NCBI GenBank assembly: GCA_951406725.2
Contig: OX597820.1
Location: 116,126,001-116,190,000, forward strand
Direction of reading: 5' to 3'
Length of the DNA stretch: 64,000 nucleotides
From: Octopus vulgaris
Taxonomy: Eukaryota
Shown: positions 24,692 to 59,103 of the stretch, in pieces
Position numbering within the stretch: position 1 is the stretch's first letter
Layout of the letters: every line of letters starts with the position of its first letter
The notes under the pieces: model-generated
What the model was told of the DNA's origin: nothing
Database searches by the model: none
What the model saw: only the letters and a program-made list of their open reading frames with translations
Program-made: the position numbers and the translations under genes

Positions 24692-25057
24692 AATAAATCT
24701 CCTAACGAGATGTAAACAGTAACCGCTCGACAACGTAAAGTGTACTAGTCATTTGAATGTGGCTAGCCACTGGGGGTGGGTGTTACTGAAGCTTATAGCC
24801 CCGGAGATCATCGTCTCCAGCTGGCTTTAGACACACTTTCTGTGCTCTTCTGATATTCGCAAAGGGAGGTCATCCCCTCTCAAAAGCCTAAGTGATACAT
24901 GCGGACTATAGTTTCGAGGTATTTGCCTCTCGTCAACGTAGAGTACAGAAAGTGAGTCTAAAGCCAGCTGAAGACGATGATCTCCTGGGGCTATAAGCTT
25001 CAGTAACACCCACCCCCAGTGGCTAGCCACATTCAGATGGCTAGTACACTTTACGTT
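24692..25057. mobile_element. Penelope-like fold-back element nested in a TTAA-type MITE (24505-25112)
   Basis: Inverted arms about 24730-24846 and 24942-25057; flanking duplication GTGAATAAATAAGCATTA / GTGAATAAGTAAGTGTTA; hammerhead motif in the spacer; relatives at 43069 and 54045. Confidence 0.7.
24900..24940 (-). ncRNA. Minimal type-I hammerhead ribozyme (UUGACGA core)
   Basis: Minus strand TACG TTGACGA GAGG-caaata-CCTC GAAA CTATAG TC CGCA; palindromic stem III, GUC site, one mismatch in stem I. Confidence 0.7.
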
Positions 25058-26659
25058 GTGAATAAGTAAGTGTTACATTTAACCGAGTAATCAGAATTAC
25101 TAAAAGAGTTATAACAGGTTTTTGAATTTGATTTATTGTTCTTTATATTAATTTGAATCCTGCTGATTTATGTATTCAATGTCGGTACTGATCAAGTTGT
25201 CTGAATGATTGCAATTAGTTTTTATTATTATGGCAGACTCGTTAGCGTGCCGGGCATAATGCTTGGCGACATTTTGTCTGTCTTAACATTCTGATTTCAA
25301 ATGCTGCTGGGGTTGACTTTGCTTTTCGTCCTTTTGGGGTTGGTAAAGTAAGCACTGGGGTTGAAGAAATTGGTTTACCCACTCCCTGACCCCTGAACTT
25401 GCTGGCCTTGTGCAAAAATTTGAAATTATTATTATTTTTTTTTTTTTTCAAGCATTTGTTTTTCTTTGTAAATTCCTTCAGAAGCTGAACTTTTTGTGAC
25501 TTATCCTTACATAATTTGTTATTATTATTATTATTATTTGATTAAGGCCCACTATTTTTACCCCTTCAACCCATCAATTGCACTCCCCTTTTGTGCTCCT
25601 TTTTCAGAACCACTGCATTAAAAAGTGTCAACAATTTCATATCTGAACTATGACCACAGCCTTATTGATGAATGAATCACTGATATTGCAGAAACATCTC
25701 TTACAATGATTTTTAAAGACTTTTTTTTTTCTAAAACCCATTTTGTCATTTCTCAATAATACTCTAAACATATTCGATGCCATCTTTCATAGTTTGGTTC
25801 TGTTTTATTGAACCACTTTCAAACTGTGAAGAAGCATTTTTCTTTTCTTTTTTTTTTCTCTTTCTTCATTTGGTGAGTATTCTTAACGGGTACTTTTCAA
25901 AAACTAAAGAAACTCACCCCATACTGACTGGATGGACACACAAACACCCAAGCTTTCTGTCTCACTTAAATTCCATTAAATTCTATATTACTGTTACCTA
26001 GTTTCTCTTCCATTTCTTTCTCAATTTCTATTGTTTTGTTTTCTCTATATAACATTCCGTCCATGATATTTTTTTTCTCTGTCAGCAGTTTCTCAGCCTT
26101 CAAAGTGAACATATCATTTAAAAAAATCATTTTTGTACATCTTTTTATTTTCATTTCATTTTTCTACCATAGTCTTTATTTTGTTGTCAACCTTATTTTT
26201 TTCAATAATATTGTGAGTGGATTTGATAGATGGAAACTGAAAGAAGCCTGTTGTATCTCGCCCTACATGTGTGTGGACTTGTTTTGACATCACATGACAG
26301 TTGTAAATGAGTGCCTTACAAGTGGTGTCATTCCTTTACTTCTTTTAGTCATTGGACCGTGGCCATGCTGGGGCTGCAGTCCAATTACTAAAACAGATAA
26401 AAGGTATATCGGAGAAAGGTTAATCTAAAGCTATTTCTGATTGAAAACATTAAATTTTAAAAGATAACTTTTAAAATCTAATAACATACGACAATCTGTT
26501 TTTTGTACATTATTACTGTTATCAGATTATATTTCAGAATCAAGAGTTTTGTTTTCATTAGAACTCATAAATGGATGAGTGCCAAACTACATGATACCCT
26601 CAGCAAGTTTCTTCAGCTGTAGACTTGGGTTGACCAATACTTTTTGAGTGAAAATTAGC

Positions 26660-26968
26660 AGGCGTAGGAGTGGCTGTGTGGTAAGTAGCTTGCTTATGAA
26701 CCACATGGTTGCTGGTTCAGTCCCACTGCATGGCACCTTAGGCAAGTGTCTTCTAGTATAGCCTCAGGCCAACCAAAGCCCCTGTGAGTGGATTTGGTAG
26801 ACAGAAACTGAAAGAAGCCCATCGTATATATGTGTGTATATATATATGTATGTGTTTGTCCCCCCCAACATCACTTGACAACCGATGCTGGTGTCTTTAC
26901 GTCCCCGTAACTTAGCAGTTAAGCAAAAGAGACCAATAGAATAAGTACTAGGCTTACAAAGTATAAGT
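26660..26968 (+). mobile_element. SINE family A (3'-truncated)
   Basis: A and B boxes plus body. Confidence 0.8.
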
Positions 26969-27504
26969 ACAAGAGTAGATGAAGACTGCAGCAGCTCATT
27001 GTATATATATATGTGTGTGTGTGTGTATATATATATATATCATCATGATCATAGTTTAATTTCCATCTTCCATGCTAGCATGGGTGGGATAGTACCACAA
27101 GAGCCGGTCAGGCCGAAGCCTGCACCAGACTTCTGTGACTGTTTTGGCAGGATTTTTACAAGTGGATGCCCTTCCTAACACCAACCACTCAGCAGAGTGG
27201 ACTTAGTACTTTTTATGTGGCACAAGCACAGGTGAGGATATGTGTGTGTAAATACTTAAAAATAAATGTTATTAAATGCTTAAAAAGCAAAGAACATTGA
27301 CTGATTGAAGGGTCTAATGCCCAATACAAGAGCTGTGTCTAAATGTGTGTTTGCACAAACTCACACACATACAAGGCTATATATTAAAAGCAGTAACTCC
27401 TGGATAATCACTGAAGTTAAACAAAATTGAAACCTAGTAAGTGCTTAGATGGATAACCACTGGGGAAACGTAGGTGCTGTAAGCATCACTGAAACACTGG
27501 CATA

Positions 27505-27978
27505 ATAATAATAATAATAATGAAATTATTGTATACAGTGCTCAGGTGCACCACAACTTGTCAAAAGTGCATATAAAGTATATGCAGTAATGTACAAATG
27601 TTTGGGGAGTGAACAGTGTATGAGTCAGATACATGCTTGCGTGTGTATGGAGGGAGAAAATCAGGTGTAGTGTTGGCAAATCTCAGAAAGCATGGAAGTT
27701 TTGAAGGATGCAGTGCTCCGACAACTAACAACTGATGCCGGCAGTTTGTTCCATGCTTCAGCAACTCAGCGTGAAAAATGTTTCCTAAAGTCATGGGAGC
27801 TGTGCTGTTTTCTGACTTTGTAAATATGTCCACGGGTGGAGTTTGTAAGATGGTTGATAATTTTATGGGTGTCTGCCAAGTCAGCTGCCAGACGTCGGAG
27901 TTTCAATGTGTCCATGCCCAGGGAAGTAAGGCGTTCAGAATATGGCAAATGCCTGATGGAGGGTATTCTGGATGCGTG
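27505..27978 (-). mobile_element. CR1-type LINE 3' fragment
   Basis: PYSERLTSLGMDTLKLRRLAADLADTHKIINH..TRGHIYKVRKQ..RKHF; (ATT)n tail. Confidence 0.85.
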
Positions 27979-28192
27979 TTAAAGAAATTCCTTTCCTAAC
28001 CATGTGGTTTTGGGTTACAAACCTAGCTGGAGCAAAGCATGGTTGAAATTGAGATCTTGGGGAGAATGCAACTCCTTAATTTGTACACTATAAATAAGTA
28101 TGATATTTGGGACAATAGAAATCTGCAAGACCTGAAGATTAAAAGGATGATGATCAAAACAAGATGTTACCAAGCAGATGGTCAAAATCAAC

Positions 28193-28660
28193 TCATCATC
28201 GTCGTCGTTTAACGTCCGCTTTCCATGCTAGCATGGGTTGGACGATTTGACTGAGGACTGGCAAACCAGATGGCTGCACCAGGCTCCAATCTTGATTTGG
28301 CAGAGTTTCTACAGCTGGATGCCCTTCCTAACGCCAACCACTCCAAGAATGTAGTGGGTGCTTTTACGTGCCACTGGCACGAGGGCCAGTCAGGCGTTAC
28401 TGGCAGCGGTCACGGAAAATCGTGTTTTTTTTTTTTTATGTGTCACCTGCACACTGGTACAAGTGCCAGTAAGGCAATGCTGGTAATGATCACGTTCGAA
28501 TGGTGCTTTTTACGTGCCACCGGCACGAACGCCAGTCAGCTGCTCTGGCAACGCTCACGCTCGGATGGTGCTCTTAGTGCTCCACTAGCACGGATGCCAG
28601 TCATCGAATTTTATTTCGGTTCTGATTTCACTTGCCTCAACAGGTCTTTGCAAGCAGAGT
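28193..28660 (-). mobile_element. Short retroposon family C with degenerate 5' tandem units
   Basis: Core plus 3-4 GGTGCTTTTTACGTGCCAC-anchored units. Confidence 0.75.
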
Positions 28661-28748
28661 CCAATGAAGGGAAAATTAAAAAAAGGAAATAGAAACACAT
28701 ACAAGAATGCAAGCTTCCTGGAATACATGAATGAATAAGTGCACACAT

Positions 28749-30135: not shown

Positions 30136-30819
30136 AAACAGGCCCCAGGGCTTATATTTTAAGTTTGGCATTTATTCTATCGGTCTCTGGTGCTGAACTG
30201 CTAAGTTATGGAGATGAAAACAAATCAACACTGAGTGTCAAGGAGTAGGCAGCACTAGGAGTTCTCTACACAACTTGGGTGGAAAAAATATCACAAAAGG
30301 ATTCTGATTGAAAGGATTAGTAATATTATCTTTTGCCAAAAGATATCCAAATATGAACATTTATATCATTATCATCATCATCATCATCGTTTTAATGTCC
30401 ACTTTTCTATGCTTGCATGGGTTTGACAGAGTTCATTGAAGCAGATCTTCGATAGCTGAATGCCCTTCTTGACACCAACCCTTACCTGTTTCCAAGCAAG
30501 GTAACATTTCCCCATGGCCTGACATGGTTTTCATGGCAGACTGGAAATAAACAGCTTCGTTTGCATGATAATGGTACTTATTTACCAACTATCATAGAAC
30601 GAGTTGACAAGGGTGCACACACACACACATGATGGGTATCTTTCAGTTTCTGGATACCAAATCTACTCACAAAGCTTTAGTTGGTTAAGGCTATAGTAGA
30701 AGGCATTTACCTAAGGTACGACACAGAACAAAATTCAAGATCAAACTCTTGTACTTATGCAGGAATATATACACATTATTTACAATTGACGGATATTTGT
30801 CCTCATCTTGTTTGTTGTT

Positions 30820-30865
30820 AACACAATGTTTCAGCTGATATACCCTCCAGCCTTCATCAGGTGTC
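30820..30865 (-). ncRNA. Minimal type-I hammerhead ribozyme (left arm)
   Basis: GACAC CTGATGA a GGCTG-gagggtatat-CAGCT GAAA CA TT GTGTT; stem III carries a CpG-type G>A change. Confidence 0.65.
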
Positions 30866-30932
30866 TTGGGGAAATTTTGAACCTGGGTTCTCATTCCTAA
30901 GATATTTTTCAATGCTATTATTATTATTATTA

Positions 30933-30966
<34 letters not shown>

Positions 30967-31204
30967 AGTCACTGCCTGGAATCAAGCTACTAACCCCAAG
31001 ATTCCGAGTTTGATCACAGGCAGTGACCTGAATAATAATAATAATAATGATAATAGTAATAATCATAATAATAATAAGAAGAAGAAGAACAACAACAACG
31101 ACGATGATGATGATGATAATAATAATAATAACAATAATGATAATAATAATAATAACATCGAAAAATACCTTACGAATGAGAACCCAGGTTTTAAATTTCC
31201 CCAA

Positions 31205-31250
31205 GACACCTGATGAAGGCTGGAGGGTATAACAGCTGAAACGTTGTGTT
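31205..31250 (+). ncRNA. Minimal type-I hammerhead ribozyme (right arm)
   Basis: GACAC CTGATGA a GGCTG-gagggtataa-CAGCT GAAA CG TT GTGTT; loopless palindromic stem III (ACGT); predicted cleavage after 31245. Confidence 0.8.
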
Positions 31251-31439
31251 AACAACAAACAAGATGAGGACAAATATCCGTCAAATGTAAATAATTCCTC
31301 ATCTCTTAAATATAGAACTGTATGAATATATACATTTTCCCCTAAATTCCATCCAAAAGGCATTAGTTGACCAGAGTCTGTGATTGTGAAGCAAGCTTTC
31401 TACCCACAAACTCATACCTGCATTTATAACCATATGACC

Positions 31440-36707: not shown

Positions 36708-36905
36708 AACATTATTTACATTTGACAGATATTTGTCCTCATCTTGTTTGTTGTTAACACAATGTTTTGGCTGATATACACTCCAGCCTTCATCAGGTGT
36801 CTTGGGGAGATTTTGAACCTGGGTTCTCATTCCTAAGGTATTTTTCGATGTCGTTGTTGTTGTTATTATCATTATTATTCAGGTCACTGCTTGGAATCGA
36901 ACTCA

Positions 36906-36956
<51 letters not shown>

Positions 36957-37066
36957 TAATAATAATAACAATAACATCAAAAAATACCTTAGGAATGAGA
37001 ACCAGGTTTGAAATTTCCCTAAGACACCCGATGAAGGCTTGAGGGTATATCAGCTGAAACGTTGTA
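36708..37066. mobile_element. Penelope-like fold-back element, same family as 30774-31323
   Basis: Inverted arms around an (AAT)n core; decayed hammerheads at 36756-36801 (-; GAAA>AAAA) and 37023-37065 (+; CCGATGA, truncated stem I). Confidence 0.75.
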
Positions 37067-37874
37067 AGGTCTAGTTTTATTTTAATTTTACAAGGAAAAG
37101 TTGACAGTAATTTCAAAGATTCAGCATAGTTGTCTTTGTCAGTCTGATAATAGTGACTGAGCCCAAATGTCAAAGTTACTGTCAACCATTTCTTTGTAAA
37201 TAAATAAAAGATGGCTGTCAACTTGTGAGATGAGTACAACCATAGCTGACTAAATAAAATGCCTCTTGGCATTACATGTTGTGAGAACAACAATGGTTCT
37301 TGAATCCTGCCAGCAACTTATAGAACTTGCTGCAGGTTTGACATTCATACCGATTCTTTTGAATTCCTGGTTCTTCTGGATCATTCTGATGACTTTCTCT
37401 GTGCCCTCTCAGGTGACAAGGTAAACCTGAGCAACTTATACACATTTAAACCTTGTGAAAACTGACCTCACCTGCGCTTGTGCCACGTGAAAAGCCCTCG
37501 GTCCACTCTGCTGGGTGGTTGGTGTTAGGAAGGGCATGCAGCCATAAAAACCTTGCCAAAACAGACACAAAAGTTTGGTGCAGGCTTCTGTTAAACCGTC
37601 CAACCCATGCCAGCATGGAAGGCAGATGTTAAACGATGATGATGATATATACATGCATGCATACATATCTACCTGCCTACCTATCTACTTAACAAAATAC
37701 ATAGGTACATACATATATGTGTGTACATATATGCACACCATGCATACATATATGTGTATATACATACATATTTATGAAAGTGTGTATATATGTGTACATA
37801 TCTCTACATGCATGCACATACACACACATACATGCAGATAAACACAAAGTCTTGTAACTTGATTTGCCAAACAT

Positions 37875-38799: not shown

Positions 38800-41268
38800 G
38801 ATAGTTCCACGTAAAAAGCACCTGTGCTGGTGCCACATAAAAGGCACCTGTGATGGTGCCATCTAAAAAGCACCTGTGGTGGTGCCAAATAAAAAGCACC
38901 TGTGCTGGTACCATGTAAAAAACACCTGTGTTGCCCCCCCCCCCCCCAAAAGCACCTGTGCTGGTTCCACATAAAAAGCACCTGTGCTGGTTCCACATAA
39001 AAAGCACCTGTGCTGGTTCCACATAAAAAGCACCTGTGCTGGTTCCACATAAAAAGCACCTGTGCTGGTAGCACATAAAAAGCACCTGTGCTGGTAGCAC
39101 ATAAAAAGCACCTGTGCTGGTTCCACATAAAAAGCACCTGTGCTGGTAGCACATAAAAAGCACCTGTGCTGGTTCCACATAAAAAGCACCTGTGCTGGTT
39201 CCACATAAAAAGCACCTGTGCTGGTGCCACGTAAAAAGCACCTGTGCTGGTAGCACATAAAAAGCACCTGTGCTGGTTCCACATAAAAAGCACCTGTGCT
39301 GGTAGCACATAAAAAGCACCTGTGCTGGTAGCACATAAAAAGCACCTGTGCTGGTTCCACATAAAAAGCACCTGTGCTGGTAGCACATAAAAAGCACCTG
39401 TGCTGGTTCCACATAAATAGCACCTGTGCTGGTAGCACATAAAAAGCACCTGTGCTGGTAGCACATAAAAAGCACCTGTGCTGGTTCCACATAAAAAGCA
39501 CCTGTGCTGGTAGCACATAAAAAGCACCTGTGCTGGTTCCACATAAAAGCACCTGTGCTGGTAGCACATAAAAAGCACCTGTGCTGGTTCCACATAAAAA
39601 GCACCTGTGCTGGTAGCACATCCAAAAGCACCTGTGCTGGTAGCACATAAAAAGCACCTGTGCTGGTTCCACATAAAAAGCACCTGTGCTGGTAGCACAT
39701 AAAAAGCACCTGTGCTGGTTAGCATAAAAAGCACCTGTGCTGGTTCCACATAAAAAGCACCTGTGCTGGTAGCACATAAAAAGCACCTGTGCTGGTTCCA
39801 CATAAAAAGCACCTGTGCTGGTAGCACATAAAAAGCACCTGTGCTGGTAGCACATAAAAAGCACCTGTGCTGGTGCCACGTAAAAAGCACCTGTGCTGGT
39901 AGCACATAAAAAGCACCTGTGCTGGTTCCACATAAAAAGCACCTGTGCTGGTAGCACATAAAAAGCACCTGTGCTGGTGGCACATAAAAAGCACCTGTGC
40001 TGGTGGCACATAAAAAGCACCTGTGCTGGTAGCACATAAAAAGCACCTGTGCTGGTTCCACATAAAAAGCACCTGTGCTGGTAGCACATAAAAAGCACCT
40101 GTGCTGGTAGCACATAAAAAGCACCTGTGCTGGTTCCACATAAAAAGCACCTGTGCTGGTAGCACATAAAAAGCACCTGTGCTGGTTCCACATAAAAAGC
40201 ACCTGTGCTGGTAGCACATAAAAAGCACCTGTGCTGGTAGCACATAAAAAGCACCTGTGCTGGTAGCACATAAAAAGCACCTGTGCTGGTAGCACATAAA
40301 AAGCACCTGTGCTGGTTCCACATAAAAAGCACCTGTGCTGGTAGCACATAAAAAGCACCTGTGCTGGTTCCACATAAAAAGCACCTGTGCTGGTAGCACA
40401 TAAAAAGCACCTGTGCTGGTAGCACATAAAAAGCACCTGTGCTGGTTCCACATAAAAAGCACCTGTGCTGGTAGCACATAAAAAGCACCTGTGCTGGTTC
40501 CACATAAAAAGCACCTGTGCTGGTTCCACATAAAAAGCACCTGTGCTGGTGCCACTTAAAAAGCACCTGTGCTGGTTCCACATAAAAAGCACCTGTGCTG
40601 GTTCCACATAAAAAGCACCTGTGCTGGTAGCACATAAAAAGCACCTGTGCTGGTTCCACATAAAAAGCACCTGTGCTGGTTCCACATAAAAAGCACCTGT
40701 GCTGGTAGCACATAAAAAGCACCTGTGCTGGTTCCACATAAAAAGCACCTGTGCTGGTTCCACATAAAAAGCACCTGTGCTGGTGCCACGTAAAAAGCAC
40801 CTGTGCTGGTAACACATAAAAAGCACCTGTGCTGGTTCCACATAAAAAGCACCTGTGCTGGTGCCACGTAAAAAGCACCTGTGCTGGTAGCACATAAAAA
40901 GCACCTGTGCTGGTAGCACATAAAAAGCACCTGTGCTGGTAGCACGTAAAAAGCACCTGTGCTGGTACCACGTAAAAAGCACCTGTGCTGGTTCCACATA
41001 AAAAGCACCTGTGCTGGTTCCACATAAAAAGCACCTGTGCTGGTTCCACATAAAAAGCACCTGTGGTGGTTCCACATAAAAAGCACCTGTGCTGGTAGCA
41101 CATAAAAGCACATGCGCTGGTGCCATGTAAAAAGCACCTGTGCTGGTACCACGTAAAAAGCACCTGTGCTGGTACCACGTAAAAAGCACCTGTGCTGGTA
41201 GCACATAAAAGCACATGCGCTGGTGCCATGTAAAAAGCACCTGTGCTGGTACCATGTAAAAAACACCT
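38800..41268. repeat. 26-bp minisatellite, roughly 95 copies
   Basis: Unit GCACCTGTGCTGGT(TC/AG)CACATAAAAA; explains the 835-aa and 879-aa periodic ORFs (26-aa period = 3 units). Confidence 0.97.
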
Positions 41269-41450
41269 ACTACTCACTGTAAAGTGGTTGGCATGAGGAA
41301 GTGCATCCAGTTGTAGAAATCTTGCCAAAACAGACAATTGGTGCCTGGTGTAGTTCTCTGGATTGCCAGCTCCTGCCAAACCATCCAACCTATGCCAGCA
41401 TGGAGAACAGATGTTAAATGATGATGATGATGATGATGATGACGGTGATG
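41268..41450 (+). mobile_element. Short retroposon family C core directly after the 26-bp array
   Basis: AGTGGTTGGCATGAGGAAGTGCATCCAGTTGTAGAAA...CCAGCATGGAGAACAGATGTTAAA(TGA)n. Confidence 0.8.
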
Positions 41451-42660: not shown

Positions 42661-43068
42661 TAAAAGTTTGTTATTGTTTCTAAATTCTAACCAGCTTGGA
42701 TAAGTTTATCTGTTTAGTTTTACAAAAGGGTTCATGAAAGAACAAAGATATCATAAGATTGAGAGGACCCTTAGGTTTTGTCTTCACAAACTCAATTCAG
42801 TCTTTAGAGACATCAGAAGATGGCAATGAGCTCTTTAACTTTACATGATGCAAAAAAACATAAGTATTTTAAGTTTATTAAATGTTTCTTTTATTTCTGT
42901 ATTGTTTTACCTTCATTTTATTTCATTCCTGCTTGAATATATCCCTAATTTATTTCAATGAAATGAAGTATTACCTTTCGATTTTGGATTTGGTTTGCAA
43001 GATTCTTTATACCAGTTTGTGTGTTATTTTAGGAAAATGAAAATAAGAAATCAGAAATATTAAATTTC

Positions 43069-43380
43069 TAAATCTCTTGTAGAGACATGTACGGTGGTGG
43101 GGCGATAGAATGGTTGTATACTGTCAATCTAACACGAATGTGACAGTAGGGGGGGGGGGTACACCACCACTGTTTAGCCCTAGGAAGCATCGACGCCTCC
43201 TGATGGCTTTGACACATTTTTCCTGTGTCCTTATATACATTTACAAAGGGGAGACAAATACCCCCAGCCGCCCGGGCTGCATCTAGGGACACGTGTTTCA
43301 GGATGATTGTCCTTCGTCGGCCTAGAGTAGCAGACACCGGTCAGCTGACGATATCTGTCTCGACTCGTAATGTATATATC
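43069..43380 (-). mobile_element. Solo Penelope-like pseudo-LTR element with hammerhead
   Basis: 8-bp direct repeat TAAATTTC at 43061-43068 and 43381-43388; hairpin series homologous to the 24.7-kb and 54.1-kb elements. Confidence 0.7.
43283..43325 (-). ncRNA. Minimal type-I hammerhead ribozyme (CCGACGA core)
   Basis: Minus strand CTAGG CCGACGA AGGA-caatca-TCCT GAAA CACGTG TC CCTAG; all three stems perfect, GUC site, U4>C. Confidence 0.8.
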
Positions 43381-43800
43381 TAAATTTCAGTGAAGTCTAT
43401 TCACTGATTATCAAAATAAGAAAAAAAGTGGAAATTTTACCGGTGAGTATGTTACATCATAAGGCACAAAAAGAAAATGACTCTCCCCAAAATACAACAA
43501 AAGTATTAACTATTCCAAGCATAAAACAACAGCTCATGCCCCAATGTCATGATAAAATGCATTAGATATACTTTGTAAAGTAGTTGTTTTAGGAAAGGCA
43601 TCTTTCCATAAGAATAATGCCAATATATATGTTGTATGTGCAATACATGGCCCCTTAACTCCACCTAGTGCGACTGCAACTCTGAATAACAACTAACTCT
43701 GACCGTAAGGACCTGCCCTGTTCATGAAGAGTGGATGTAAAATGATAATGGTGATGATAAAAAAGAATGGCTTTGACGGAGACTGCTTAAAAGGCCTTAC

Positions 43801-46357: not shown

Positions 46358-46749
46358 CTTAAGAGAGATATACAATAGATTATTAATTTATGCATGGTTC
46401 TTGACATAATTAAAATCAACAAATAGTTTTTTAAAATTTATTTTTAATATGAAGTCATGACAACATGTACATACAAAAATGGCAAAGAGGATAAAATAAT
46501 AGACAAACCACATCCACATTTTGTCAATAAATATAGCAAATATGTGATGCAACTCTATATGGCTTCACATTGCTGTTAAAAAGAGTTTGTGTTGCAGAAA
46601 TATACAATCCTAACAGATAAATGTAATGTTTTCCTTTGTGTTATGAAATACTGAGCTAAGATCTAAGTTTATCTAGATCATCATTTTATACAGTGACATC
46701 ATATACAGTAACATGCATGCATGCATTTATACATACCTACATACATACA

Positions 46750-47330
46750 GGTGTTAACACTGAAGATATCACCCACATCATAAGCAGTTATCTGAAAATG
46801 TCATCACGGTATTATCTACCGATGAGACATGATGTTGTAGCTAGAACACAGTATAATGAGATCTATCGAAAGGATAACCCCAAAAACAAAGAAATAAGAA
46901 CCCACAGTATGGTAGAAGCCGTAGCCACTCATAATCAAAAGGAATACTGGTGGAATGTCCCGTGAAGACCTCAATAAAATGTAAGCACAACATACCTGAT
47001 ATAATGATTAGGGATAGAGAAGAGAAATTGTGTACAGTTGTGGAAATTAGCTTCCCAGTGGGTGTTAACATAAAGCTGAAGATCAGTGAAAAAGAGAAAA
47101 CCTATGCTGAACTTTTGAGAAATTTGCAGCTACTCTATCAAGATTACAAGTTCAGGTTTATACCTGTAATTATTGGGGCCCTGGGATGTGTAATACACCG
47201 CTTAAATACTAATCTTGAGAAATTAGGCTTCTCAAAACTAGAGAGGAGAAAGCTAATTCAAAGACTTACAGATCCAATCCATCACAAGAACGGTAAAAAT
47301 CTGTAAAAAAACTTTCCAGAAGTTGAACCT
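46750..47330 (+). mobile_element. R4/Dong-like non-LTR retrotransposon 3' fragment
   Basis: EDITHIISS...RHDVVA and KHNIPDIMIRD..CTVVEISFP..YAELL..IPVIIGALG (PD..E restriction-like endonuclease), frameshifted. Confidence 0.85.
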
Positions 47331-48119: not shown

Positions 48120-48690
48120 CGAAAATATTAGAAATAGCAGCCAAATTGATCACTATTTCTCCTCCTAATAAAAAAGTCTCCACAAACAAACAGAATTTGT
48201 AACCCATATTTTGGAGGGAGATATGAATTCGCATGTCTATATAAATGTAGGGATGCTAGTAGTCTGTTAGATCGTTCGATGTCGCTGGTCGAGCTGGTGT
48301 AACAGGTGAGTTTTTTTCCCTAGCATTTCTAGATTTATAGGAAATATTATATTGACAAGGAAATGAGCCTTCGGTTCTAATCCAGAAACAATTCGTCTAT
48401 AATTAATCCATAGGCTGGGATTTCGTTATTTTCTTTCTTTTTACCATATACGGGTTACAAATTCTGTTTGTTTGAGGAGACTTTTTTATTAGTAGAAGAA
48501 ATAGTGATCAATTTGGCTGCTATTTCTAATATTTTCGGTATGTGGTTTTGAGCAACTTGTTGCAATTAACGCTTTATCATAATTAATATAATTCTTACCA
48601 AATATGGTCTTTTCCATACTGATAAATCTACTAGGTGAAATTTATTAATTTTATTAAATTAATTATATTTCACCCTTTTTTGTATATTAC
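48120..48690 (+). mobile_element. Penelope-like element with partial 5' inversion
   Basis: Arms about 48120-48210 and 48445-48537 are inverted; spacer has a TATA box (about 48238), donor CAG/GTGAGT (48303-48311) and a hammerhead-like fold. Confidence 0.65.
48346..48403 (+). ncRNA. Hammerhead-like motif with U3:A8 core variant
   Basis: ATTATA TTGACAA GGA-(19 nt with hairpin)-TCC a GAAA C-aattc-G TC TATAAT; 6-bp stem I, GUC site after 48397. Confidence 0.55.
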
Positions 48691-48928
48691 ATATATATAT
48701 ATACATATATATACATATACACATATATATATATATATATATACATATAATACAGAATAAGAAAATGGAGGAATAGATTTCTTTCAATCATCAACTTCCA
48801 GATAATACCAATTCATATGATTTATTAACTAATTATTTAGATTAAATAGGAACATCCAAATCCAACAGAATAAGACAATATACATCAATAAGTAAGATTA
48901 TACCATAAGAATAATACATATAAAATGT

Positions 48929-49056
48929 ATCTTACAGCTGTTTCAGCCTGTAGATAAGAGTATCTCATTATGCCCATATTAGTCAGATGTATTGAGGTAA
49001 TATTCAGTTAAAAATGAGTTACTTATATATATATATCTCAAGGCCTCGTCAGAGAT
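48929..49056 (-). ncRNA. Type-I hammerhead ribozyme with extended stem II (left arm)
   Basis: ATCT CTGACGA GGCCT-(91 nt)-AGGCT GAAA CAGCTG TA AGAT. Confidence 0.8.
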
Positions 49057-49793
49057 TATAAAGTACAATTATAAAGATATAAAATGCAAATATGAATATT
49101 AAACAAGGTACACATATACAAGAATATGCATATATACATACATATAAGTGTATATACACCTACATATACATATATATAAGTATATACATAATAATATACA
49201 TACACATAAGGTTACAGTTAATCAGATCTATATACTGGAATATACATATATATCCACATTAAAGTGTACATATACAAAGTCCAAAGTTCATTGTATTACA
49301 TTACTAAAAACTATTAATATTATTATTATTATTATTAATAATACCAATAAAGGAATATGTGCATTCTGCTATTCACAATACATAGTAGATGGAAAATACC
49401 ACATAAAATATAGTATAATATAATATTGTGACATTTTATATTGTTTTGCATTATTTTATTTTATTGAATTAATTTACTGGCATCTCCCATATGCATCTGT
49501 CTATATATTATGTTACACTATATTATATATTGTATATTTAATATAATATATTTATTATGTTGTGTTACACTGTATTCACTTTGGACTTTGTATATGTACA
49601 CTTTCATGTGGATATATATATGCATATTCCAGTATATAGATCTGATTAACTGTAACCTTATGTGTATGTATATTATTATGTATATACTTATATATATGTA
49701 GGTGTATATACACTTATATGTATATGTATATATGCATATTCTTGTATATGTGTACCTTGTTTAATATTCGTATCTTTATAATTGTACTTTATA

Positions 49794-49921
49794 ATCTCTG
49801 ATGAGGCCTTGAGATATATATATATAAGTAACTCATTTTTAACTGCATATTACCTCAATACATGTGACTAATATGGGCATAATGAGATACTCTTATCTAC
49901 AGGCTGAAACAGCTGTAAGAT
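49794..49921 (+). ncRNA. Type-I hammerhead ribozyme with extended stem II (right arm)
   Basis: ATCT CTGATGA GGCCT-(91 nt)-AGGCT GAAA CAGCTG TA AGAT; predicted GUA cleavage after 49917. Confidence 0.8.
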
Positions 49922-50654
49922 CCATTTTATATATATTATTCTTATGGTATTATCTTAGTTATTGATGTATATTGTTTTATTCTGTCTTATTCTGTTGGAT
50001 TTGGATGTTCCTATTTAATCTAAATAATTAGTTAATAAATCATATGAATTGGTATTATCTGGAAGTTGATGATTGAAAGAAATCTATTCCTCCATTTTCT
50101 TATTTTGTATTATGAATTTGAGGTAAAACATTTTACCTTCACCCATATAATACAATAAATGAATTAATTGCATTGCAATTCTTAGCATTTATGTATTAGC
50201 CTTTCTGGGTACTTTACTGGCAATATATTGGATAAATGATATCCCATAGTGGGTTACACTCATAACCCCTATCTCACTTTGTACTTTATATACATATATA
50301 TATATATATTATGTAATACCAGCAGAAAACCTCCAGAAGGACAGTGTTTCTGCTAGTTTGTGTATATTGGAATGAAACTCGAAAGGAAAAAAGTTGTATA
50401 TGATTGTGATATGATAAATAGATATATGTAGCAATTTTCACAAATATTTTTAAAGCATCTCAAAGAAAAACTTCGTAATTTATTTTAAAATAAAGCAATT
50501 GAATAGAGGTGGTACAAGGAGAGGAAGGGAGAAAGAGAGAGAGAGAGAGAGAGTTGTAAGGAAAGAAACTGAAATAGAGTGTGCGAGTAAAGATGAAAAG
50601 TAGTAAAGGAAATAACAAGGAAGAAATGCAAATGAAGTGTGTGTGTGTGTGTGT

Positions 50655-54044: not shown

Positions 54045-54320
54045 TAATGTAAAGTATACTAGCCATCTCAATATGGCTAACCACTAAGGGTGGGTGTTAC
54101 TGTAGCTTGTAGCCACAGGAGATCATCGTCTCCAGCTGGCTTTAGGCACATTTTCTGTGCCCTTATGGTATTTGCCTAAAGCCAGCTGGAGACGATGATC
54201 TCCTGGGGCTACAAGCTACAGTAACACCCACCCTTAGTGGATAGCCATATTGAGATGGTTAGTATACCTCACATTGTCGTGCAGTTACTGTTTACATCTC
54301 GTTCAGAGATCTATTATTAC
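54045..54320. mobile_element. Penelope-like fold-back, same family as 24692-25057, truncated before the hammerhead; lies inside a hAT-like MITE starting at about 53872
   Basis: Arms about 54045-54149 and 54173-54276 are inverted; one-sided tail GTTTACATCTCGTTCAGAGATCTATT matches the 24.7-kb end; host starts CAGAGATTCTCAAACTTTTT. Confidence 0.7.
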
Positions 54321-54366: not shown

Positions 54367-54686
54367 TTCTTCTTCTTCTTAGCTGAGATGGCGAAAACGA
54401 AAGGATGTCGGATTAAATACCTTGCAATATTTCACTTAGTGTATAGCATATGTTCTCAAAGTGGGCGCTACCGTCCCCCGGTGGGCGTTAAGACGGTCCA
54501 GATGGGCGCTGGTGCTTAAGGGAGCGGTATAGAAAAAGCACCAGCGCCCATCTGGACCGTCTTAACGCCCACCGGGGGACGGTAGCGCCCACTTTGAGAA
54601 CATATGCTATACACTAAGTGAAATATTGCAAGGTATTTAATCCGACATCCTTTCGTTTTCGCCATCTCAGCTAAGAAGAAGAAGAA
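54367..54686. repeat. Apparently perfect 151-bp inverted repeat with 18-nt spacer
   Basis: 54367-54517 is the reverse complement of 54536-54686; no mismatch seen by eye. Confidence 0.92.
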
Positions 54687-54857
54687 GAAGGTAAACCTGT
54701 GTGGTTGCAAGACGGCTAAGAAGCCCTTTTACAACCATATGGTTTCGGGTTCAGTCCCACTGCGCGGCACCTTGAGCAAGTATCTTTTGCTATAGCCCCG
54801 AGTCGACCGATGTTTTGGGAGTAAATTTGGTAGACGGAAACTGTGTGGAAGCCCATC

Positions 54858-54926
<69 letters not shown>

Positions 54927-56656
54927 GAGTTGGGCGTAAGTCCGTTAATCCATTAATCGTTAATTAGCGAAGTTAACATTTTCAGTAACGATCTAAATTT
55001 TAGTTGGCTTTGAAAATCATTATCGGACTAATTGATTTAAGTTACTTTTAGCTTTCGTTAACTCAAGTCCGTTAACCCCAAAATTTCATAAAAAAACAGT
55101 AAACGTTTAAAAGTTTCTACCATTTTCAGATTGTCTTAGCATATTCAATATTGTACGCATCATTCTTTCAACCTCGATATAACGCCATTTATTATTACAA
55201 ATAACTTGAAATAAAATCCACACCCTTGTTGCTAGCAAAGGTAGCGGGAAAATTCTTTGTCCTGTCAAAAGGGAACAGTGTTTGATATGTTTCCACTTGT
55301 TCCTTGACCTCGTTAAGGTGGATGTCAACAGAGAAAATATTGACTTCCATAAAGTCGAAAAAATAAATGGAAGGAAAATGTTGGTAAATATTTCGGTGTG
55401 AACGCAAATAGCTGTTATGTGGTAGCAGGGCATGCTATAAATAGAAGCCAAATCTATCCTTTTCTGGAAAAAGGAGTCCTTTACGCGTGATTTCAGTGTC
55501 ACATTCGTTGAAAGCATGCAAAATAACCTAGAAAAGAAAAAAGAGACCCGCGAAGCAAACCTCCCTTGGTGAGAAACTTCGAGGTCCCCACCACCTCTCC
55601 GACCTTTCTTTTCAGGAAAAAGTGGCTGGCGGCGCATTTGGCGGTCAGATACATCGAATGCACCCCCCCCCCCCAAAAAAAACTGTGGAAAAAATTATTC
55701 CACTCCAAGGTACGAAATATTTGGCGAAAGAATAAAATCTTGTACCGATTTTACCTGTATTTTAATTAATTCAAATTAATGCATCTCATCTTGAAAAGTG
55801 GAAAAAAGTTTTGTCGCATAGTTTTAATAAGAAATCAAACAGGTAAGATGTATTAAAAATTTCAATTTTAGTGTTTATCCATAATGTTTTATACATGTTA
55901 ATTAAATTTACCTGCCCATAAAAATCAAATTTATTCGGCAAGATCAGCTAAAGTTTCATAACTATAAACCAGTGGTATATAAAGCATCCACTGACAAAAT
56001 TTCTCTATGTAAAAAATTTACAAAGTTACAAAAAAAATATTGTGGATAGCCCTCTTGAACCTGAATAATTCAAAATAATGTGAACAAATAAGCATTACAT
56101 TTGACAGATATATGAACACTAAAGATGTTTTTAGGTGGTTTTTCTTACACACACACCCATAACACGGCCTCGGTCGATTGGGACTACAAGTGTGTTACTT
56201 TGACATCCTCATTCCATGAAATTTGTTTATGGGGAGAAAAATATTGAAAAATATCAATATATGTGTGAGTGAGAAAGAAACGAGGTGGGAGGCTTTGGGA
56301 TGTGCTAGAAACAACAGTCAGATCTCCCTTAAATGACACATTTTCCTCTGAAATTATTAAATTTTTAAAAAACCGAAAATGCTTCTCTCACAGGTTTTAA
56401 GTGCATACTAAAAAAAAAAAAACATTTCGGATTGGGGTGGGAGTGAAGAAAAAATTTTCAAACTTTTTTCTTTTTTTTCGTGAAAGATGCCTCTCATCAT
56501 TCTGAAGACTTTGGTGAAAAACATCGCAAAATCATTGGTTGTCAAGTGGTGATGGTGGTGGTGATGATGGGGATGGGGAGGAACAAACACTGACACAAAG
56601 ACACATACATAGATACATGAATATGTGCACACACACACACACGTGTATATGTGCCA

Positions 56657-56697
56657 CTGATGAGAACCCAATAAGGTTCGAAAATCGATTAAAGTTG
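56657..56697 (+). ncRNA. Hammerhead core lacking the 5' strand of stem I
   Basis: CTGATGA GAACC-caataa-GGTTC GAAA ATCGAT TA; core and stems II/III intact, flanks do not pair. Confidence 0.6.
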
Positions 56698-56764
56698 TTC
56701 ATCATTTTTTCAGTCTGCGGAGAAATGGCTAAAAATTTGCCGTTTATAATTATACCATATATAT

Positions 56765-56980
56765 CTTTTACTCTTTTACTTGTTTCAGTCATTTGACTGC
56801 GGCCATGCTGGAGCACCGCCTTTAATCGAGCAACTCGACCCCGGGACTTATTCTTTTGTAAGCCCAGTACTTATTCTATCGGTCTCTTTTGCCGAACCGC
56901 TAAGTAACGGGGACATAAACACACCAGCATCGGTTGTCAAGCAATGCTAGGGGACAAACACAGACACACAAACACACACA

Positions 56981-57024
<44 letters not shown>

Positions 57025-57350
57025 TACGACGGGCTTCTTTCAGTTTCCGTCTACCAAATCCACTCAGAAGGCTTTGGTCGGCCCGAGGCTATAGTAGAGC
57101 TGCCCAGGGTGCCACGCAGTGGGACTGAACCCGGAACCATGTGGTTGGTAGACAAGCTACTTAGCACACAGCCACTCCTATATATATATACGACGGGCTT
57201 CTTTCAGTTTCCGCCTACCAAATCCACTCACAAGGCTTCGATCGATCCGAGGTTATAATAGAAGACATTTGCCCAAGGTGCTACGATGTGGGACTGAACC
57301 CGGAACCATGTAGTTGGGAAGCATGCTTCTTACCACACAGCTGCACCTCC
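56765..57350 (-). mobile_element. SINE family A, full copy plus adjacent 5' half copy
   Basis: Copies at 56765-57179 and 57190-57350. Confidence 0.85.
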
Positions 57351-57914
57351 GCTTGAGTTTCCATGGAGAGAGAGAGAGAGATAGAAAGAGAGAGGGAGAG
57401 AGAAAGAAAGATAGAGGGAGATAGAAAGAGAGAGGGAGAGAGAAAGAGAGGAGAGAGAGTGAGAGAGAGAGAAGGAAAGTAACTAAAAGCGGTCTTCCCA
57501 GTGCAGCGTCACTATGGCCGAATCGTTAGTCCACCGGGCACGTCCGTCTTAACGTCCTCAGTTCAAATGCTGCCGAGATCGACTTTGCCTTTCATTCTTT
57601 CAGGGTCGATAAAATAGTACCAGTTAAGGTACTGGAGTCGATGTAATCGACTTACCCCCTCCTTCCAAAATTGCTGGTCTTGTTTCAGAATGTCAAACTG
57701 ATATTATATTATTAGTGATGAGTGAAGTGGGAAGCTCAAACACTACCCTAGACGGTACAAACCCCGATGTTTTTATTAGAATGAAAGTATTACGGAGATG
57801 TACTTGCATAGCAAGTGACCTGATCTGAGATCGCGTGCTGGAAGGTGTTTATAAACCATTTAAGAAACACACAAAAACCGTTAGATTCACTTCAACATTT
57901 AAATTTAAATTTAA

Positions 57915-58309
57915 CTAGCAGTATCGCCCGGCGTTGCTCGGGTTTGTAAGGGAAATAACTATATAAGCATTTTTAGAGATGTAAAGTATAATAGCCATCT
58001 CAATATGGCTAACCACAAAGGGGGTGTTACTGTAGCTTTTTACGTTCTGAGATTTAATAATAAATTTTTAGAGAGTTACTTCCCTTATATATGCCAAAAA
58101 TGCATTAAAAAATGGGAAAAATTTATGGTAAATTTTTTTAAAAGTCGTAGACTCATCGTAGACGCACGCTAATACCCAGAAGGGCTCGATATAAATCATG
58201 ACTATAAGATACCCGGTTTTGGTTAAACTGCACCGCAAAATGTGGGAGTAGTTAGGAATCTAAATCGTAGGAGACAGACAGCACACAACCTCACTTTTAT
58301 ATATAAAGA
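57915..58309 (-). mobile_element. Non-autonomous Helitron, copy 1
   Basis: Minus strand 5' TC ... subterminal hairpin CCCGAGCAACGCCGGG ... CTAG 3'. Confidence 0.85.
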
Positions 58310-58826
58310 CTAGCAGTATCGGCCGGCGTTGCTCGGGTTTGTAAGGGAAATAACTATATAAGCATTTTTAGAGAGTTACTTCTTTTATAGATGCCAATTC
58401 GGGCTTTCTTAGCCATTTCTGTTTTGGTGTCTTCAAGCCATGAAGTCGTTGTTCTAAAAGAACGCTGGTCTCCTTGACAACGCATTACGACGTTGATTTC
58501 CTTAAACTCCCTTCCCCACAGCTTCACGAGGGAGGGAAGAAGGGGGAGAAGCAAACACAGGTGCAGGTGTTTGAGTGTGGACGCCAACTCCGCCGCCATC
58601 GACACACGAAAAATTATGCATTAAAATGGAATAAAAAATGATGTTAAATTATTTTTAAAATCGTAGACTCATCGTAGACGCGCGCTAATAGCCAGACGGG
58701 CTCGATATGAATCACGACTATAAAATACCCGAATTTGGTTAAACTGCACCGCAAAATGTGGGAGGAGTTAGGAATCTAAATCGTAGGAGACAGACACTCA
58801 CACAACTACAGTTTTATATATATAGA
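58310..58826 (-). mobile_element. Non-autonomous Helitron, copy 2 (head-to-tail with copy 1)
   Basis: 5' TCTATATATATAAAACTGTAG ... hairpin ... CTAG; the pair sits between A and T with no TSD. Confidence 0.85.
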
Positions 58827-58877
58827 TTTGTCAAAATATTTTCGTCGCTTTGAGACCGCGACCTGTTCACTGACAAA
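58827..58877 (-). ncRNA. Hammerhead-like motif with G3:C8 core (left arm)
   Basis: Reverse complement of 58895-58945, differing only in the stem II loop. Confidence 0.6.
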
Positions 58878-58894
58878 TTCCGTGCTGCCGGAAT

Positions 58895-58945
58895 TTTGTC
58901 AGTGAACAGGTCGCGGTCTGAAAGCGACGAAAATATTTTGACAAA
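58895..58945 (+). ncRNA. Hammerhead-like motif with G3:C8 core (right arm)
   Basis: TTTGTCA GTGAACA g GTCGC-ggtctgaaa-GCGAC GAAA ATAT TT TGACAAA; 7-bp stem I, 5-bp stem II, palindromic stem III. Confidence 0.62.
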
Positions 58946-59103
58946 TTAAATTTAAATTTATATGTTGAAGTGAATCTAACGGTTTTTGTGTGTTTCTTAA
59001 ATGGCTTATAAACACCTTCCACGCTGCAACGAAAGTATTGTTGTGGAGAAATGAGAAGCTGCGAGTAGACTTCACACCCTAGTCACAACTCACTGCAGCC
59101 TAT

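What the first reader, a model, noticed from the sequence alone, without database searches (positions are those of the whole stretch)
24692..59030. Many hammerhead-bearing, ORF-less fold-back retroelements (Penelope-like pseudo-LTR derivatives)
Seen: at least six sequence-distinct non-coding elements (24.7/43.1/54.1 kb; 30.8/36.7 kb; 48.1 kb; 48.7 kb; 56.7 kb; 57.8 kb). Most have asymmetric inverted arms and 8-18 bp flanking direct repeats. Each family carries a type-I hammerhead topology: stem I, 7-nt core, stem II, GAAA, tiny usually palindromic stem III (ACGT, CACGTG, CTATAG, CAGCTG, ATCGAT, ATAT), then UH. In two-armed copies the ribozymes point outward. Known: minimal hammerheads with palindromic stem III that cleave as dimers mark Penelope-like elements and retrozymes. 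Inference: these are non-autonomous Penelope-type or retrozyme-like elements mobilised in trans; no RT/GIY-YIG ORF is in the window. About 13 motifs in 64 kb would imply a very large ribozyme load if this density is typical.
Basis: partly seen in the sequence, partly recalled or inferred. Interest (0 to 1): 0.85.

Follow-up and report, generated by a model that had tools for sequence, protein, structure and literature searches.

The report
Penelope-type insertions carrying hammerhead motifs
This stretch of likely octopus DNA holds twelve hammerhead (self-cutting RNA) motifs, half of them damaged, in seven families of short repeats that were likely pasted in by Penelope-type retrotransposon enzymes; this is a known kind of system, but one family likely runs on a tRNA-type promoter and another has a swapped pair in the ribozyme core.

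Summary
The observation mostly holds. The window has 12 hammerhead-homologous sites in seven repeat families; 6 pass a strict type-I descriptor (0.55 expected per shuffle). The 54.1-kb copy has no hammerhead, and the 43.1- and 56.7-kb copies have one arm. All seven families are abundant in the genome. Across 156 loci of six families, 83 are head-to-head pairs facing outward and none face inward. Of the 65 pairs with both ends classed, 60 join one long and one short 3' end, and 54 of 83 have a target-site repeat (control 15%). That is the Penelope-like element (PLE) 'tail' signature. The families are not one kind. The 48.7-50.3-kb family is the end repeat of a coding Hydra-clade PLE, so it is not a non-autonomous family. 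Four are 300-560-nt tandem retrozyme-like units. One has a tRNA-like head (a likely PLE-dependent SINE). One has a fixed G3:C8 core. A 400-kb sample suggests about 10^5 intact-looking motifs per genome, similar to axolotl or Schistosoma. Fold-back copies are predicted to bury their ribozymes in long hairpins. Cleavage is untested. The scan noted the SINE, the G3:C8 family and a similar retrozyme before on other DNA of this genome.

The parts
24686..25059 (.). F1a insert: long arm on - strand (24940-24686; hammerhead core at 24936, U3.G8 core TTGACGA, stem III CTATAG) joined head-to-head to a short arm without hammerhead (24945-25059); 14-nt flanking repeat. Retrozyme-like family, unit about 356 nt.
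30772..31321 (.). F2 insert: two arms head-to-head, short end left, long end right; intact hammerhead at 31210+ (C3:G8, stem III ACGT), damaged one at 30860-; partial tRNA-like head (anticodon and B-box part) at 30986-31041; (AAT)n linkers; 11-nt flanking repeat
36709..37065 (.). F2 insert, decayed: left hammerhead 36796- has lost GAAA; right one 37028+ has a C4 core and is cut off just after the cleavage site; no flanking repeat
43052..43420 (-). F1b single unit (about 360 nt, tandem elsewhere) with hammerhead at 43320-43288, core CCGACGA (U4C fixed in the family), stem III CACGTG; long end; 11-nt flanking repeat
48120..48690 (.). F3 insert: long arm on + strand (48208-48690, hammerhead core at 48352, U3:A8 core TTGACAA, stem III mismatched in this copy) plus a 90-nt inverted piece; unit about 555 nt, tandem elsewhere
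48747..50287 (.). F4 insert: 1.5-kb palindrome of two 5'-truncated copies (3' UTR plus pseudo-LTR) of a Hydra-clade PLE; hammerheads at 49052- and 49798+ with a 90-nt loop II; short end left (+321), long end right (+493); in a (TA)n target
54046..54316 (.). F1a-related head-to-head insert made only of sequence 3' of the hammerhead; no ribozyme motif; 12-nt flanking repeat
56653..56760 (+). F5 single arm truncated at the core; core 56657 CTGATGA, stem III ATCGAT, stem I lost in this copy; unit about 306-309 nt, tandem elsewhere
57791..59029 (.). F6 insert: head-to-head arms with G3:C8 hammerheads at 58870- and 58902+ (core GTGAACA, stem III ATAT); long end left, short end right; 12-nt flanking repeat
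57915..58826 (-). Two tandem Helitron-like copies (TC...CTAG, inserted between A and T) that split the left F6 arm; not part of the hammerhead element
   Evidence: sequence ends shown; the Helitron label is from recalled end rules, not from a library search

Best explanation
These are insertion products of seven short RNA families that carry type-I hammerhead motifs and were likely copied into the genome by Penelope-like element (PLE) reverse transcriptase/GIY-YIG endonuclease proteins. Shown: every family is multicopy; six of seven have two preferred 3' ends; inverted pairs always face outward and nearly always join one long and one short end inside a target-site repeat; one family (F4) is the pseudo-LTR of a coding Hydra-clade PLE. 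Inferred: the PLE protein nicks both strands of AT-rich DNA about 10-13 nt apart. Each nick primes cDNA synthesis at one of two internal start sites on the RNA (30-60 nt apart in F1a, F1b, F2 and F6; about 105 in F3; about 170 in F4). The two cDNAs are joined at their far ends, which gives a head-to-head palindrome with one tailed arm. The templates differ. F4 uses the mRNA of a coding PLE. F1a, F1b, F3 and F5 use tandem or circular 300-560-nt retrozyme-like RNAs in trans. F2 likely uses a polymerase III transcript with a tRNA-like head. F6 uses an RNA whose 5' end is fixed about 24 nt before the core, either a non-coding unit or the 5' end of a PLE mRNA whose ORF was not found. The ribozyme is likely used in the tandem source loci (dimer cleavage, perhaps circles), not in the dispersed copies, which decay and, when two-armed, are predicted to fold into long hairpins.
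For: Two 3' ends in F1a (+206 and about +250), F1b (+209/+263), F2 (about +88/+120), F3 (+238/+344), F4 (+319/+493) and F6 (about +125/+183). Of 156 de-duplicated loci, 83 are outward pairs and 0 inward; of 65 pairs with both ends classed, 60 are long+short, 3 long+long, 2 short+short (p about 2e-13 against one half). Flanking repeat of 8 nt or more in 54 of 83 (random pairs 15%); non-simple repeats 44 of 83 (control 7.7%). The same layout (inverted pLTR, optional 31-bp tail, 8-10-bp TSD) is described for Adineta Pen2a (PMC3846280, passages) and PLEs in general (PMC8557442, passages). The tail equals the gap between two internal RT start sites, and both target strands are cut and extended in vitro (PMC11167929). 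F4 at G000:C4:98.38 Mb is pLTR-ORF-pLTR, 88-93% identical to the window arms, and its long end runs on towards the ORF start. The ORF family matches Neptune-type RT/GIY-YIG ORFs of this genome by profile comparison (probability 99.1, E 5e-19) and has the RWK, DKT and CxCX5C motifs that PMC8557442 gives for Hydra. PLE ORFs are plentiful here: 4,788, 23,008 and 10,083 first-look candidates for three queries. Tandem units: and a young array of about eight 359-nt units with the same head-to-head layout in the unbiased sample. F2 head: A- and B-box-like motifs at tRNA spacing; 21 of 25 loci hold a head match; none of the 150 best F2 matches lies in a frame over 179 aa. Stems I and II differ in sequence between families but pair in each, and the 3:8 pair is C:G, G:C, U:A or U.G by family.
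Against: A coding partner was found for 1 of 7 families. For the other six, none of the 155 PLE-ORF loci screened (80, 45, 30) had them in a pLTR position; the hits there looked like separate insertions. F5 shows only one clear 3' end and no inverted pair in 25 loci. 18 of 83 pairs have an end that fits neither class, and 29 of 83 have no flanking repeat of 8 nt or more. The loci are best BLAST hits, not a random draw, and the F6 query was itself a palindrome centre. The tRNA origin of the F2 head is weak by formal tests: ARAGORN 0 of 25 loci, Rfam tRNA 11.8 bits, E 4.2. Pfam finds no RT or GIY-YIG in the F4 ORF itself. Core positions are conserved about as well as flanks among copies (0.965-0.992 against 0.946-0.985), so there is no clear sign of selection on dispersed copies. 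F1a (U3.G8 in 25 of 29) and F1b (C4 in 34 of 36) spread with non-consensus cores, and cleavage was not needed for PLE insertion in vitro (PMC11167929). No cleavage, RNA ends or circles were shown here.
Confidence: 0.85

Rival explanations
1. All seven families are simply the pseudo-LTRs of coding PLEs; the short copies are abortive cis products of internal priming near the 5' end of full-length mRNAs, and no non-autonomous family or SINE is needed.
For: True for F4. F2 has an open frame from before the hammerhead to the long end (52 codons), as in PLEs where the pLTR and tail hold the first codons (PMC3846280). F6 has a fixed 5' end and a short ATG-started frame through its tail (sequence). 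An earlier scan note (e1-8669850) reads F2 this way.
Against: In F1a, F1b, F3 and F5 the tail runs straight into the next unit's upstream part with no ORF. For F2, 0 of 150 best matches lie in a frame over 179 aa, and a search for longer proteins with this start found only three, two of them host gene models with the repeat at the front and one unnamed 156-aa product. Rare full-length parents could be missed by these capped searches.
Confidence: 0.3
2. The inverted copies are DNA transposons (MITE or foldback type) and the hammerheads are passengers.
For: Long inverted arms and 9-13-nt flanking repeats also occur in Mutator/foldback elements (own knowledge). F6 has a near-fixed centre and was two-armed in 20 of 20 loci, though the query selected for that.
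Against: Ends are asymmetric in 60 of 65 pairs; centres vary from copy to copy in F1a, F1b, F3 and F4; 73 of 156 loci are single or tandem; repeat lengths vary; F4 belongs to an RT-coding element.
Confidence: 0.04
3. The RNAs are copied by ordinary LINE proteins (RTE, R4/Dong, CR1, L1/Tx1), and the palindromes come from twin priming.
For: LINEs are abundant and recently active in Octopus vulgaris (PMC13282606); restriction-like endonuclease fragments lie in the window. F2 has a SINE-like head and an (AAT)n stretch.
Against: LINE twin priming uses the RNA 3' tail plus a variable internal site (own knowledge); here both ends are fixed internal sites. The (AAT)n stretch of F2 is internal, not terminal. 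The hammerhead type and the tail match PLEs.
Confidence: 0.06
4. The insertion route is PLE-type, but the hammerheads in these families are no longer catalytic; the fold is kept as a binding site for the PLE protein or is simply inherited.
For: Fixed non-consensus cores in F1a and F1b; full-length F2 and F6 arms run through the cleavage site to a fixed 5' end, so their templates were uncut; PLE insertion in vitro does not need cleavage (PMC11167929); 8 of 9 Xenopus retrozyme dimers did not cleave in vitro (bioRxiv 10.64898/2026.07.22.740005).
Against: The 3:8 pair is kept by compensatory change (G:C in F6, 42 of 50 arms exact; U:A in F3, 33 of 35), which fits selection on the catalytic core. 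This rival is compatible with the best explanation and concerns only the role of the ribozyme.
Confidence: 0.35

Closest known systems
Endonuclease-bearing Penelope-like elements and their pLTR hammerheads (Cervera and de la Pena 2014, PMC4209133; Arkhipova et al. 2013, PMC3846280; Craig et al. 2021, PMC8557442; PAc, PMC11167929)
   Same: Minimal type-I hammerheads with palindromic stem III; most motifs single; pairs 100-700 bp apart on opposite strands (reported in S. mansoni); U3:A8 variant (reported); head-to-head inverted copy, optional tail on one arm, 8-10-bp TSD, AT-rich targets. F4 has the Hydra-clade motifs and (TA)n targets.
   Different: Those papers call the tail optional; here it is on exactly one arm in 60 of 65 pairs. 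The F4 tail is about 170 nt, not 30-40. A fixed natural G3:C8 core (F6) was not in the passages read; PMC11167929 has it only as an engineered partial rescue.
Animal non-LTR retrozymes (Cervera and de la Pena 2020, PMC7229834; Li, Clavereau and Pollet 2026, bioRxiv 10.64898/2026.07.22.740005)
   Same: Non-coding tandem units of 300-360 nt (F3 is 555) with a type-I hammerhead; mussel units are 350-390 bp; PLEs are the proposed helper.
   Different: Those papers infer the PLE helper from co-occurrence and pLTR similarity. Here the units carry the PLE insertion footprint itself. Circles and cleavage were shown for theirs, not for these; F1a and F1b have altered cores.
Schistosoma Sm-alpha / Sj-alpha SINE-like elements (PMC2770079 and PMC6765202, passages)
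   Same: tRNA-related, polymerase III-type promoter together with a hammerhead in a high-copy short repeat (F2).
   Different: Sm-alpha works as tandem repeats in which the promoter lies 3' of the cut, and its helper is not named as a PLE in the passages read. F2 is a dispersed unit with the head at the 5' end and PLE-type ends.

Membership tests
EN+ Penelope-like element (F4) | ORF with PLE RT and C-terminal GIY-YIG between direct pLTRs | tested here: met
   pLTR-ORF-pLTR at L194, broken by frameshifts and stops; intact 955-aa relative; profile match to RT/GIY-YIG ORFs, probability 99.1; no direct Pfam hit
Hydra clade PLE (F4) | RWK, DKT, CxCX5C linker, CxxC and CxH, (TA)n targets | tested here: met
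   motifs against PMC8557442; targets; no tree was built
EN+ Penelope-like element (F1a, F1b, F2, F3, F5, F6) | ORF with PLE RT and GIY-YIG linked to the repeat | tested here: inconclusive
   not found in 155 PLE-ORF loci or in 150 best F2 matches; searches are capped at the best hits
PLE-type insertion | head-to-head inverted copy, tail on one arm, TSD | tested here: met
   six families; F5 not met (no inverted pair in 25 loci)
Minimal type-I hammerhead | core, stems I and II, GAAA, palindromic stem III, UH | tested here: met
   6 window copies pass the descriptor; family majorities keep the fold; F1a has U3.G8 and F1b has C4
Minimal type-I hammerhead | self-cleavage as a dimer or with protein help | not testable with these tools
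   needs bench assay
Non-LTR retrozyme (F1a, F1b, F3, F5) | non-coding tandem unit of a few hundred nt with a hammerhead in each unit | tested here: met
   tandem or partial tandem copies; F3 (555 nt) is above the 150-450-bp range in PMC7229834
Non-LTR retrozyme (F1a, F1b, F3, F5) | accumulates as circular RNA | not testable with these tools
   only contig runs were offered, and only for F6
tRNA-derived SINE (F2) | tRNA-related head with A and B boxes at the 5' end | tested here: inconclusive
   boxes and spacing visible, 5' ends of full arms stop at the head; ARAGORN 0 of 25; Rfam tRNA E 4.2
tRNA-derived SINE (F2) | no coding capacity | tested here: inconclusive
   0 of 150 best matches in a long frame; a rare coding parent is not excluded
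tRNA-derived SINE (F2) | polymerase III transcription | not testable with these tools
   one reference copy has no T4 run over 260 nt, but neither has one F5 copy, so this is weak
MITE / foldback DNA transposon | symmetric terminal inverted repeats and a fixed-length TSD | tested here: not met
   60 of 65 pairs asymmetric; repeat lengths vary

The most novel reading that the evidence does not exclude
Octopus PLE enzymes support a whole class of non-coding riders, including a tRNA-promoter SINE with tens of thousands of copies (F2) and a family with a natural G3:C8 hammerhead (F6), and every two-armed insertion records one event in which each nicked target strand primes at a different one of two fixed sites on the RNA; this would explain the long-unexplained PLE tail, inverted end and second-strand synthesis, and show directly that retrozymes move by PLE proteins.
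Probability: 0.5. Interest if true: 0.7.

Novelty: new variant of a known kind. Interest (0 to 1): 0.48.

Why it matters
The general picture (PLE hammerheads, inverted pLTRs, retrozymes) is published. Three details add to it. First, the near-strict pairing of one long and one short end across six families gives a testable model for how PLEs make their inverted ends, which the papers read call unresolved. Second, retrozyme-like tandem units carry that footprint, which is more direct evidence for PLE mobilisation than co-occurrence. Third, a tRNA-headed rider of PLEs and a natural G3:C8 core were not found in the searches made, and standard descriptors and Rfam miss them. About 10^5 motifs and many long palindromes in an octopus genome also matter for repeat annotation (the curated O. 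vulgaris paper has no mention of ribozymes) and as likely sources of double-stranded RNA.

Tried and rejected
Rfam scan of the window: only microRNA-like hairpin and repeat matches below threshold, no hammerhead. Two widely spaced inverted F1a pairs (7.5 and 5.5 kb apart) were fetched as possible full-length PLEs; both hold L1/Tx1-type LINE ORFs between the arms. A Neptune-type ORF next to one F3 copy is a separate element with its own hammerhead family. Three protein searches and a GIY-YIG family search gave 155 PLE-ORF loci; only F4 was in a pLTR position. The F2 frame search and longer-protein search gave no RT. tRNA tests of the F2 head were negative or weak. Expression: no holder on record as RNA was listed for F6; four contig runs, RNA by guess only, hold hundreds of F6 pieces and list no alternative letter at core positions 3 and 8 at the 10% threshold, but cannot show ends, strand or level. 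A core-versus-flank conservation test showed no clear excess. In one search the stem II register I gave for F2 was wrong, so its stem II probability is not usable; the printed structure shows the stem. F4's hammerhead folds poorly even alone (stem I 0.08). Pairwise BLASTP of the Hydra-type against the Neptune-type ORF was not significant; the profile comparison was. A solved-structure search gave only a weak retron RT match (E 0.016). The density sample is 400 kb; a larger one was not obtained. Lunse et al. 2017 (PMC5785218) is not held and was not read. Two look-ups in earlier findings returned nothing.

Full report
Setting. The window is G000:C7:116126001-116190000 of a 2.8-Gb genome. It is likely an octopus: the F2 repeat is found in gene models named Octopus sinensis and O. 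bimaculoides. It holds exons of a zinc-finger gene at 14.4 and 17.8-18.8 kb and is otherwise repeat-rich.

Observation. A strict type-I hammerhead descriptor finds 6 sites in the window (31210+, 43320-, 49052-, 49798+, 58870-, 58902+), against 0.55 per shuffle in 40 local dinucleotide shuffles, or 0.05 with a perfect core. Family probes find 12 homologous sites in seven families, which I call F1a (24.7 kb; a hammerhead-less relative at 54.1 kb), F1b (43.1), F2 (30.8, 36.7), F3 (48.1), F4 (48.7-50.3), F5 (56.7) and F6 (57.8-59.0). The other six sites are damaged in their window copy. Rfam reports no hammerhead.

Copy number. Each family gave 1,103 to 1,933 first-look candidates in DNA searches, which are lower bounds; a translated F2 query gave 37,747. 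Forty 10-kb stretches at round coordinates on the 30 largest contigs (a fixed grid, not a random draw) held 17 strict motifs at 10 loci, 7 of them in one array, against 0 or 1 in each of 8 shuffles. That scales to about 119,000 motifs (Poisson 69,000-191,000; the array makes the true range wider) or 70,000 loci (34,000-129,000); F2 to about 56,000 arms and F6 to about 42,000. The window (6 in 64 kb) is about twice as dense as the sample. For comparison, PMC7229834 gives up to 120,000 retrozyme copies in axolotl (passages) and PMC2770079 about 38,500 hammerheads in S. mansoni (passages). The load is large but not without precedent.

Insertion anatomy. Six families have two preferred 3' ends. 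I classed 156 loci of those six families after dropping 21 loci that repeated the same insertion; F5 was left out because none of its 25 loci was an inverted pair. 83 are head-to-head pairs with 3' ends outward, none face inward, and 73 are single or tandem. In 65 pairs both ends could be classed: 60 long+short, 3 long+long, 2 short+short (p about 2e-13 against one half); 18 pairs have an end of neither class. 54 of 83 have a flanking repeat of 8 nt or more (one mismatch allowed from 10 nt), against 15% of random flank pairs; without simple TA repeats, 44 of 83 against 7.7%. The loci are top BLAST hits, and the F6 query was a palindrome centre, so the share of two-armed copies is biased; the long+short rule should not be. 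This is the PLE footprint: Adineta Pen2a has an adjacent inverted pLTR, a 31-bp tail on one arm and a 9-bp TSD (PMC3846280, passages); Craig et al. describe the same for all EN+ clades (PMC8557442, passages); and the anole element PAc cuts and extends both target strands and starts reverse transcription at two internal sites whose gap is the tail (PMC11167929, passages and the second part of the main text).

Three kinds of template. (A) F4 is the pseudo-LTR of a coding PLE. At C4:98.38 Mb two direct F4 copies flank a broken RT-endonuclease ORF; the 5' copy runs through the long end towards the ORF start and the 3' copy stops at the short end. Intact relatives of 900-990 aa exist. Pfam does not recognise them, but a profile of 39 relatives matches the Neptune-type RT/GIY-YIG ORFs of this genome (probability 99.1), and they have the RWK (RWR in the intact relative), DKT, CxCX5C, CxxC and CxH motifs given for the Hydra clade. 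The window's F4 palindrome is therefore two 5'-truncated copies, not a separate non-autonomous family. (B) In F1a, F1b, F3 and F5 the tail runs into the upstream part of the next unit: units of about 356, 360, 555 and 306-309 nt, without an ORF. A relative of F1a in the grid sample is a young array of about eight near-identical 359-nt units with canonical cores, two units on one strand ending at the short site and about six on the other ending at the long site. These match animal non-LTR retrozymes (PMC7229834, passages), for which a PLE helper has been argued from co-occurrence and pLTR similarity (bioRxiv 10.64898/2026.07.22.740005, parts 1 and 3 of 5). (C) F2 and F6 have a fixed 5' end. F2 starts with a tRNA-like segment with A- and B-box-like motifs, then (AAT)n, then the hammerhead and tail; 21 of 25 loci hold a head match. 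Formal tRNA tests are weak. An earlier scan note reads F2 as the pLTR of a coding element; I found an open frame through its tail but no long frame in the 150 best matches and no RT among longer proteins, so I favour a SINE-like rider without excluding a rare parent. F6 starts about 24 nt before the core; its parent was not found.

The ribozymes. Stems differ between families yet pair in each. The 3:8 pair is C:G in F2, F4 and F5, G:C in F6 (core exact in 42 of 50 arms), U:A in F3 (33 of 35) and U.G in F1a (25 of 29); F1b has C at position 4 in 34 of 36 (F4). U3:A8 is a known natural variant (PMC3088659, section 8; PMC4209133, parts 1 and 2 of 4). G3:C8 is a partial rescue when engineered (PMC11167929); a natural case was not seen in the listings of two searches, but Lunse et al. 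2017 could not be read and no supplements were read. Among dispersed copies the core is about as conserved as the flanks, and CpG sites decay fastest, as expected for neutral copies. Folding predicts that stem I forms in isolated F6, F2 and F1b motifs (0.79-0.98) but not in the three palindromic inserts tested (0.0), where the arms pair with each other. Full-length F2 and F6 arms run through the cleavage site, so their templates were uncut. The active ribozymes, if any, are likely in tandem source loci.

Mechanism. Shown: family structure, two ends, their pairing, flanking repeats, and one coding parent. Inferred from these and from the PAc assay: a PLE protein complex makes staggered nicks, each strand primes at a different internal site of the RNA, and the two cDNAs join at their far ends. 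The rival in PMC3846280 (self-priming on an antisense template) does not by itself predict one long and one short end, but is not excluded. Cleavage, circles and polymerase III use are untested.

Novelty. Hammerheads in PLE ends, opposite-strand pairs and retrozymes are published. Searches for hammerhead + Penelope + octopus, SINE + tRNA-derived + Penelope + hammerhead, octopus + SINE + tRNA + Penelope, hammerhead ribozymes + genome + octopus and 'SINE' + 'mobilized by Penelope' listed no paper on these families by title or abstract start; the curated O. vulgaris repeat paper has no occurrence of 'ribozyme' or 'hammerhead' (PMC13282606, part 1 of 3 and term search). The library lacks most subscription papers, and Repbase and Dfam were not available. 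Sm-alpha is a precedent for a polymerase III head with a hammerhead (PMC6765202, passages). PMC10886601 was checked (passages) and was not relevant. The labels L1/Tx1, Helitron, Neptune and Ikaros/Hunchback are from recalled motifs, not from a library call. The scan has noted F2, G3:C8 families and a 359-nt retrozyme on other DNA of this genome. Verdict: a new variant of a known kind, interest 0.48.

Noticed in passing
window 57915-58826: Two tandem Helitron-like copies (TC...CTAG on the minus strand, A/T site) inside F6; the first carries a 60-nt piece of the F1a end (57981-58040).
   Followed up: partly
L002 (G000:C7:124229111-124232227): Same F6 insert with a related Helitron-like insert and the same downstream flank as window 58.8-59.2 kb, 8 Mb away: looks like a segmental duplication.
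   Followed up: no
window 54367-54686: Perfect palindrome with 151-nt arms around an 18-nt centre; no hammerhead seen; a young element, a recent inversion-duplication or an assembly artefact.
   Followed up: no
window 14392-14961 and 17845-18789: C2H2 zinc-finger exons; the second ends in a paired finger that resembles the Ikaros/Hunchback C-terminus (recalled).
   Followed up: partly
window about 37275-37400, minus strand: Short frame ending in a C2H2-like finger and a stop; if it is a last exon, the 36.7-kb F2 copy lies at or just past its 3' UTR.
   Followed up: no
window 17046-17459, 46660-47306, 62001-62423: Fragments of restriction-like-endonuclease LINE ORFs (by motif; no Pfam hit over threshold).
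   Followed up: partly
window 38800-41300: 26-nt tandem satellite, at least 83 overlapping registers.
   Followed up: no
L279 (G000:C1:20002100-20004770): Young head-to-head array of 359-nt units with canonical hammerheads; two letter variants alternate between units, which may record a dimeric template. Good candidate for cleavage and circle tests.
   Followed up: partly
L352, L358, L359, L278: Whole coding PLEs also occur as head-to-head pairs, with ORFs of 800-980 aa still open on one or both arms; many look young.
   Followed up: partly
P0002, P0004: Octopus gene models (a cysteine-rich membrane protein and a dystrobrevin isoform) begin with the translated F2 repeat: exonisation or annotation artefact.
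   Followed up: no
L232, L240, L265, L269, L274, L277, L280, L287, L289, L299: At least eight further hammerhead families not present in the window, some with U3:A8 or C4 cores or long loop II.
   Followed up: no
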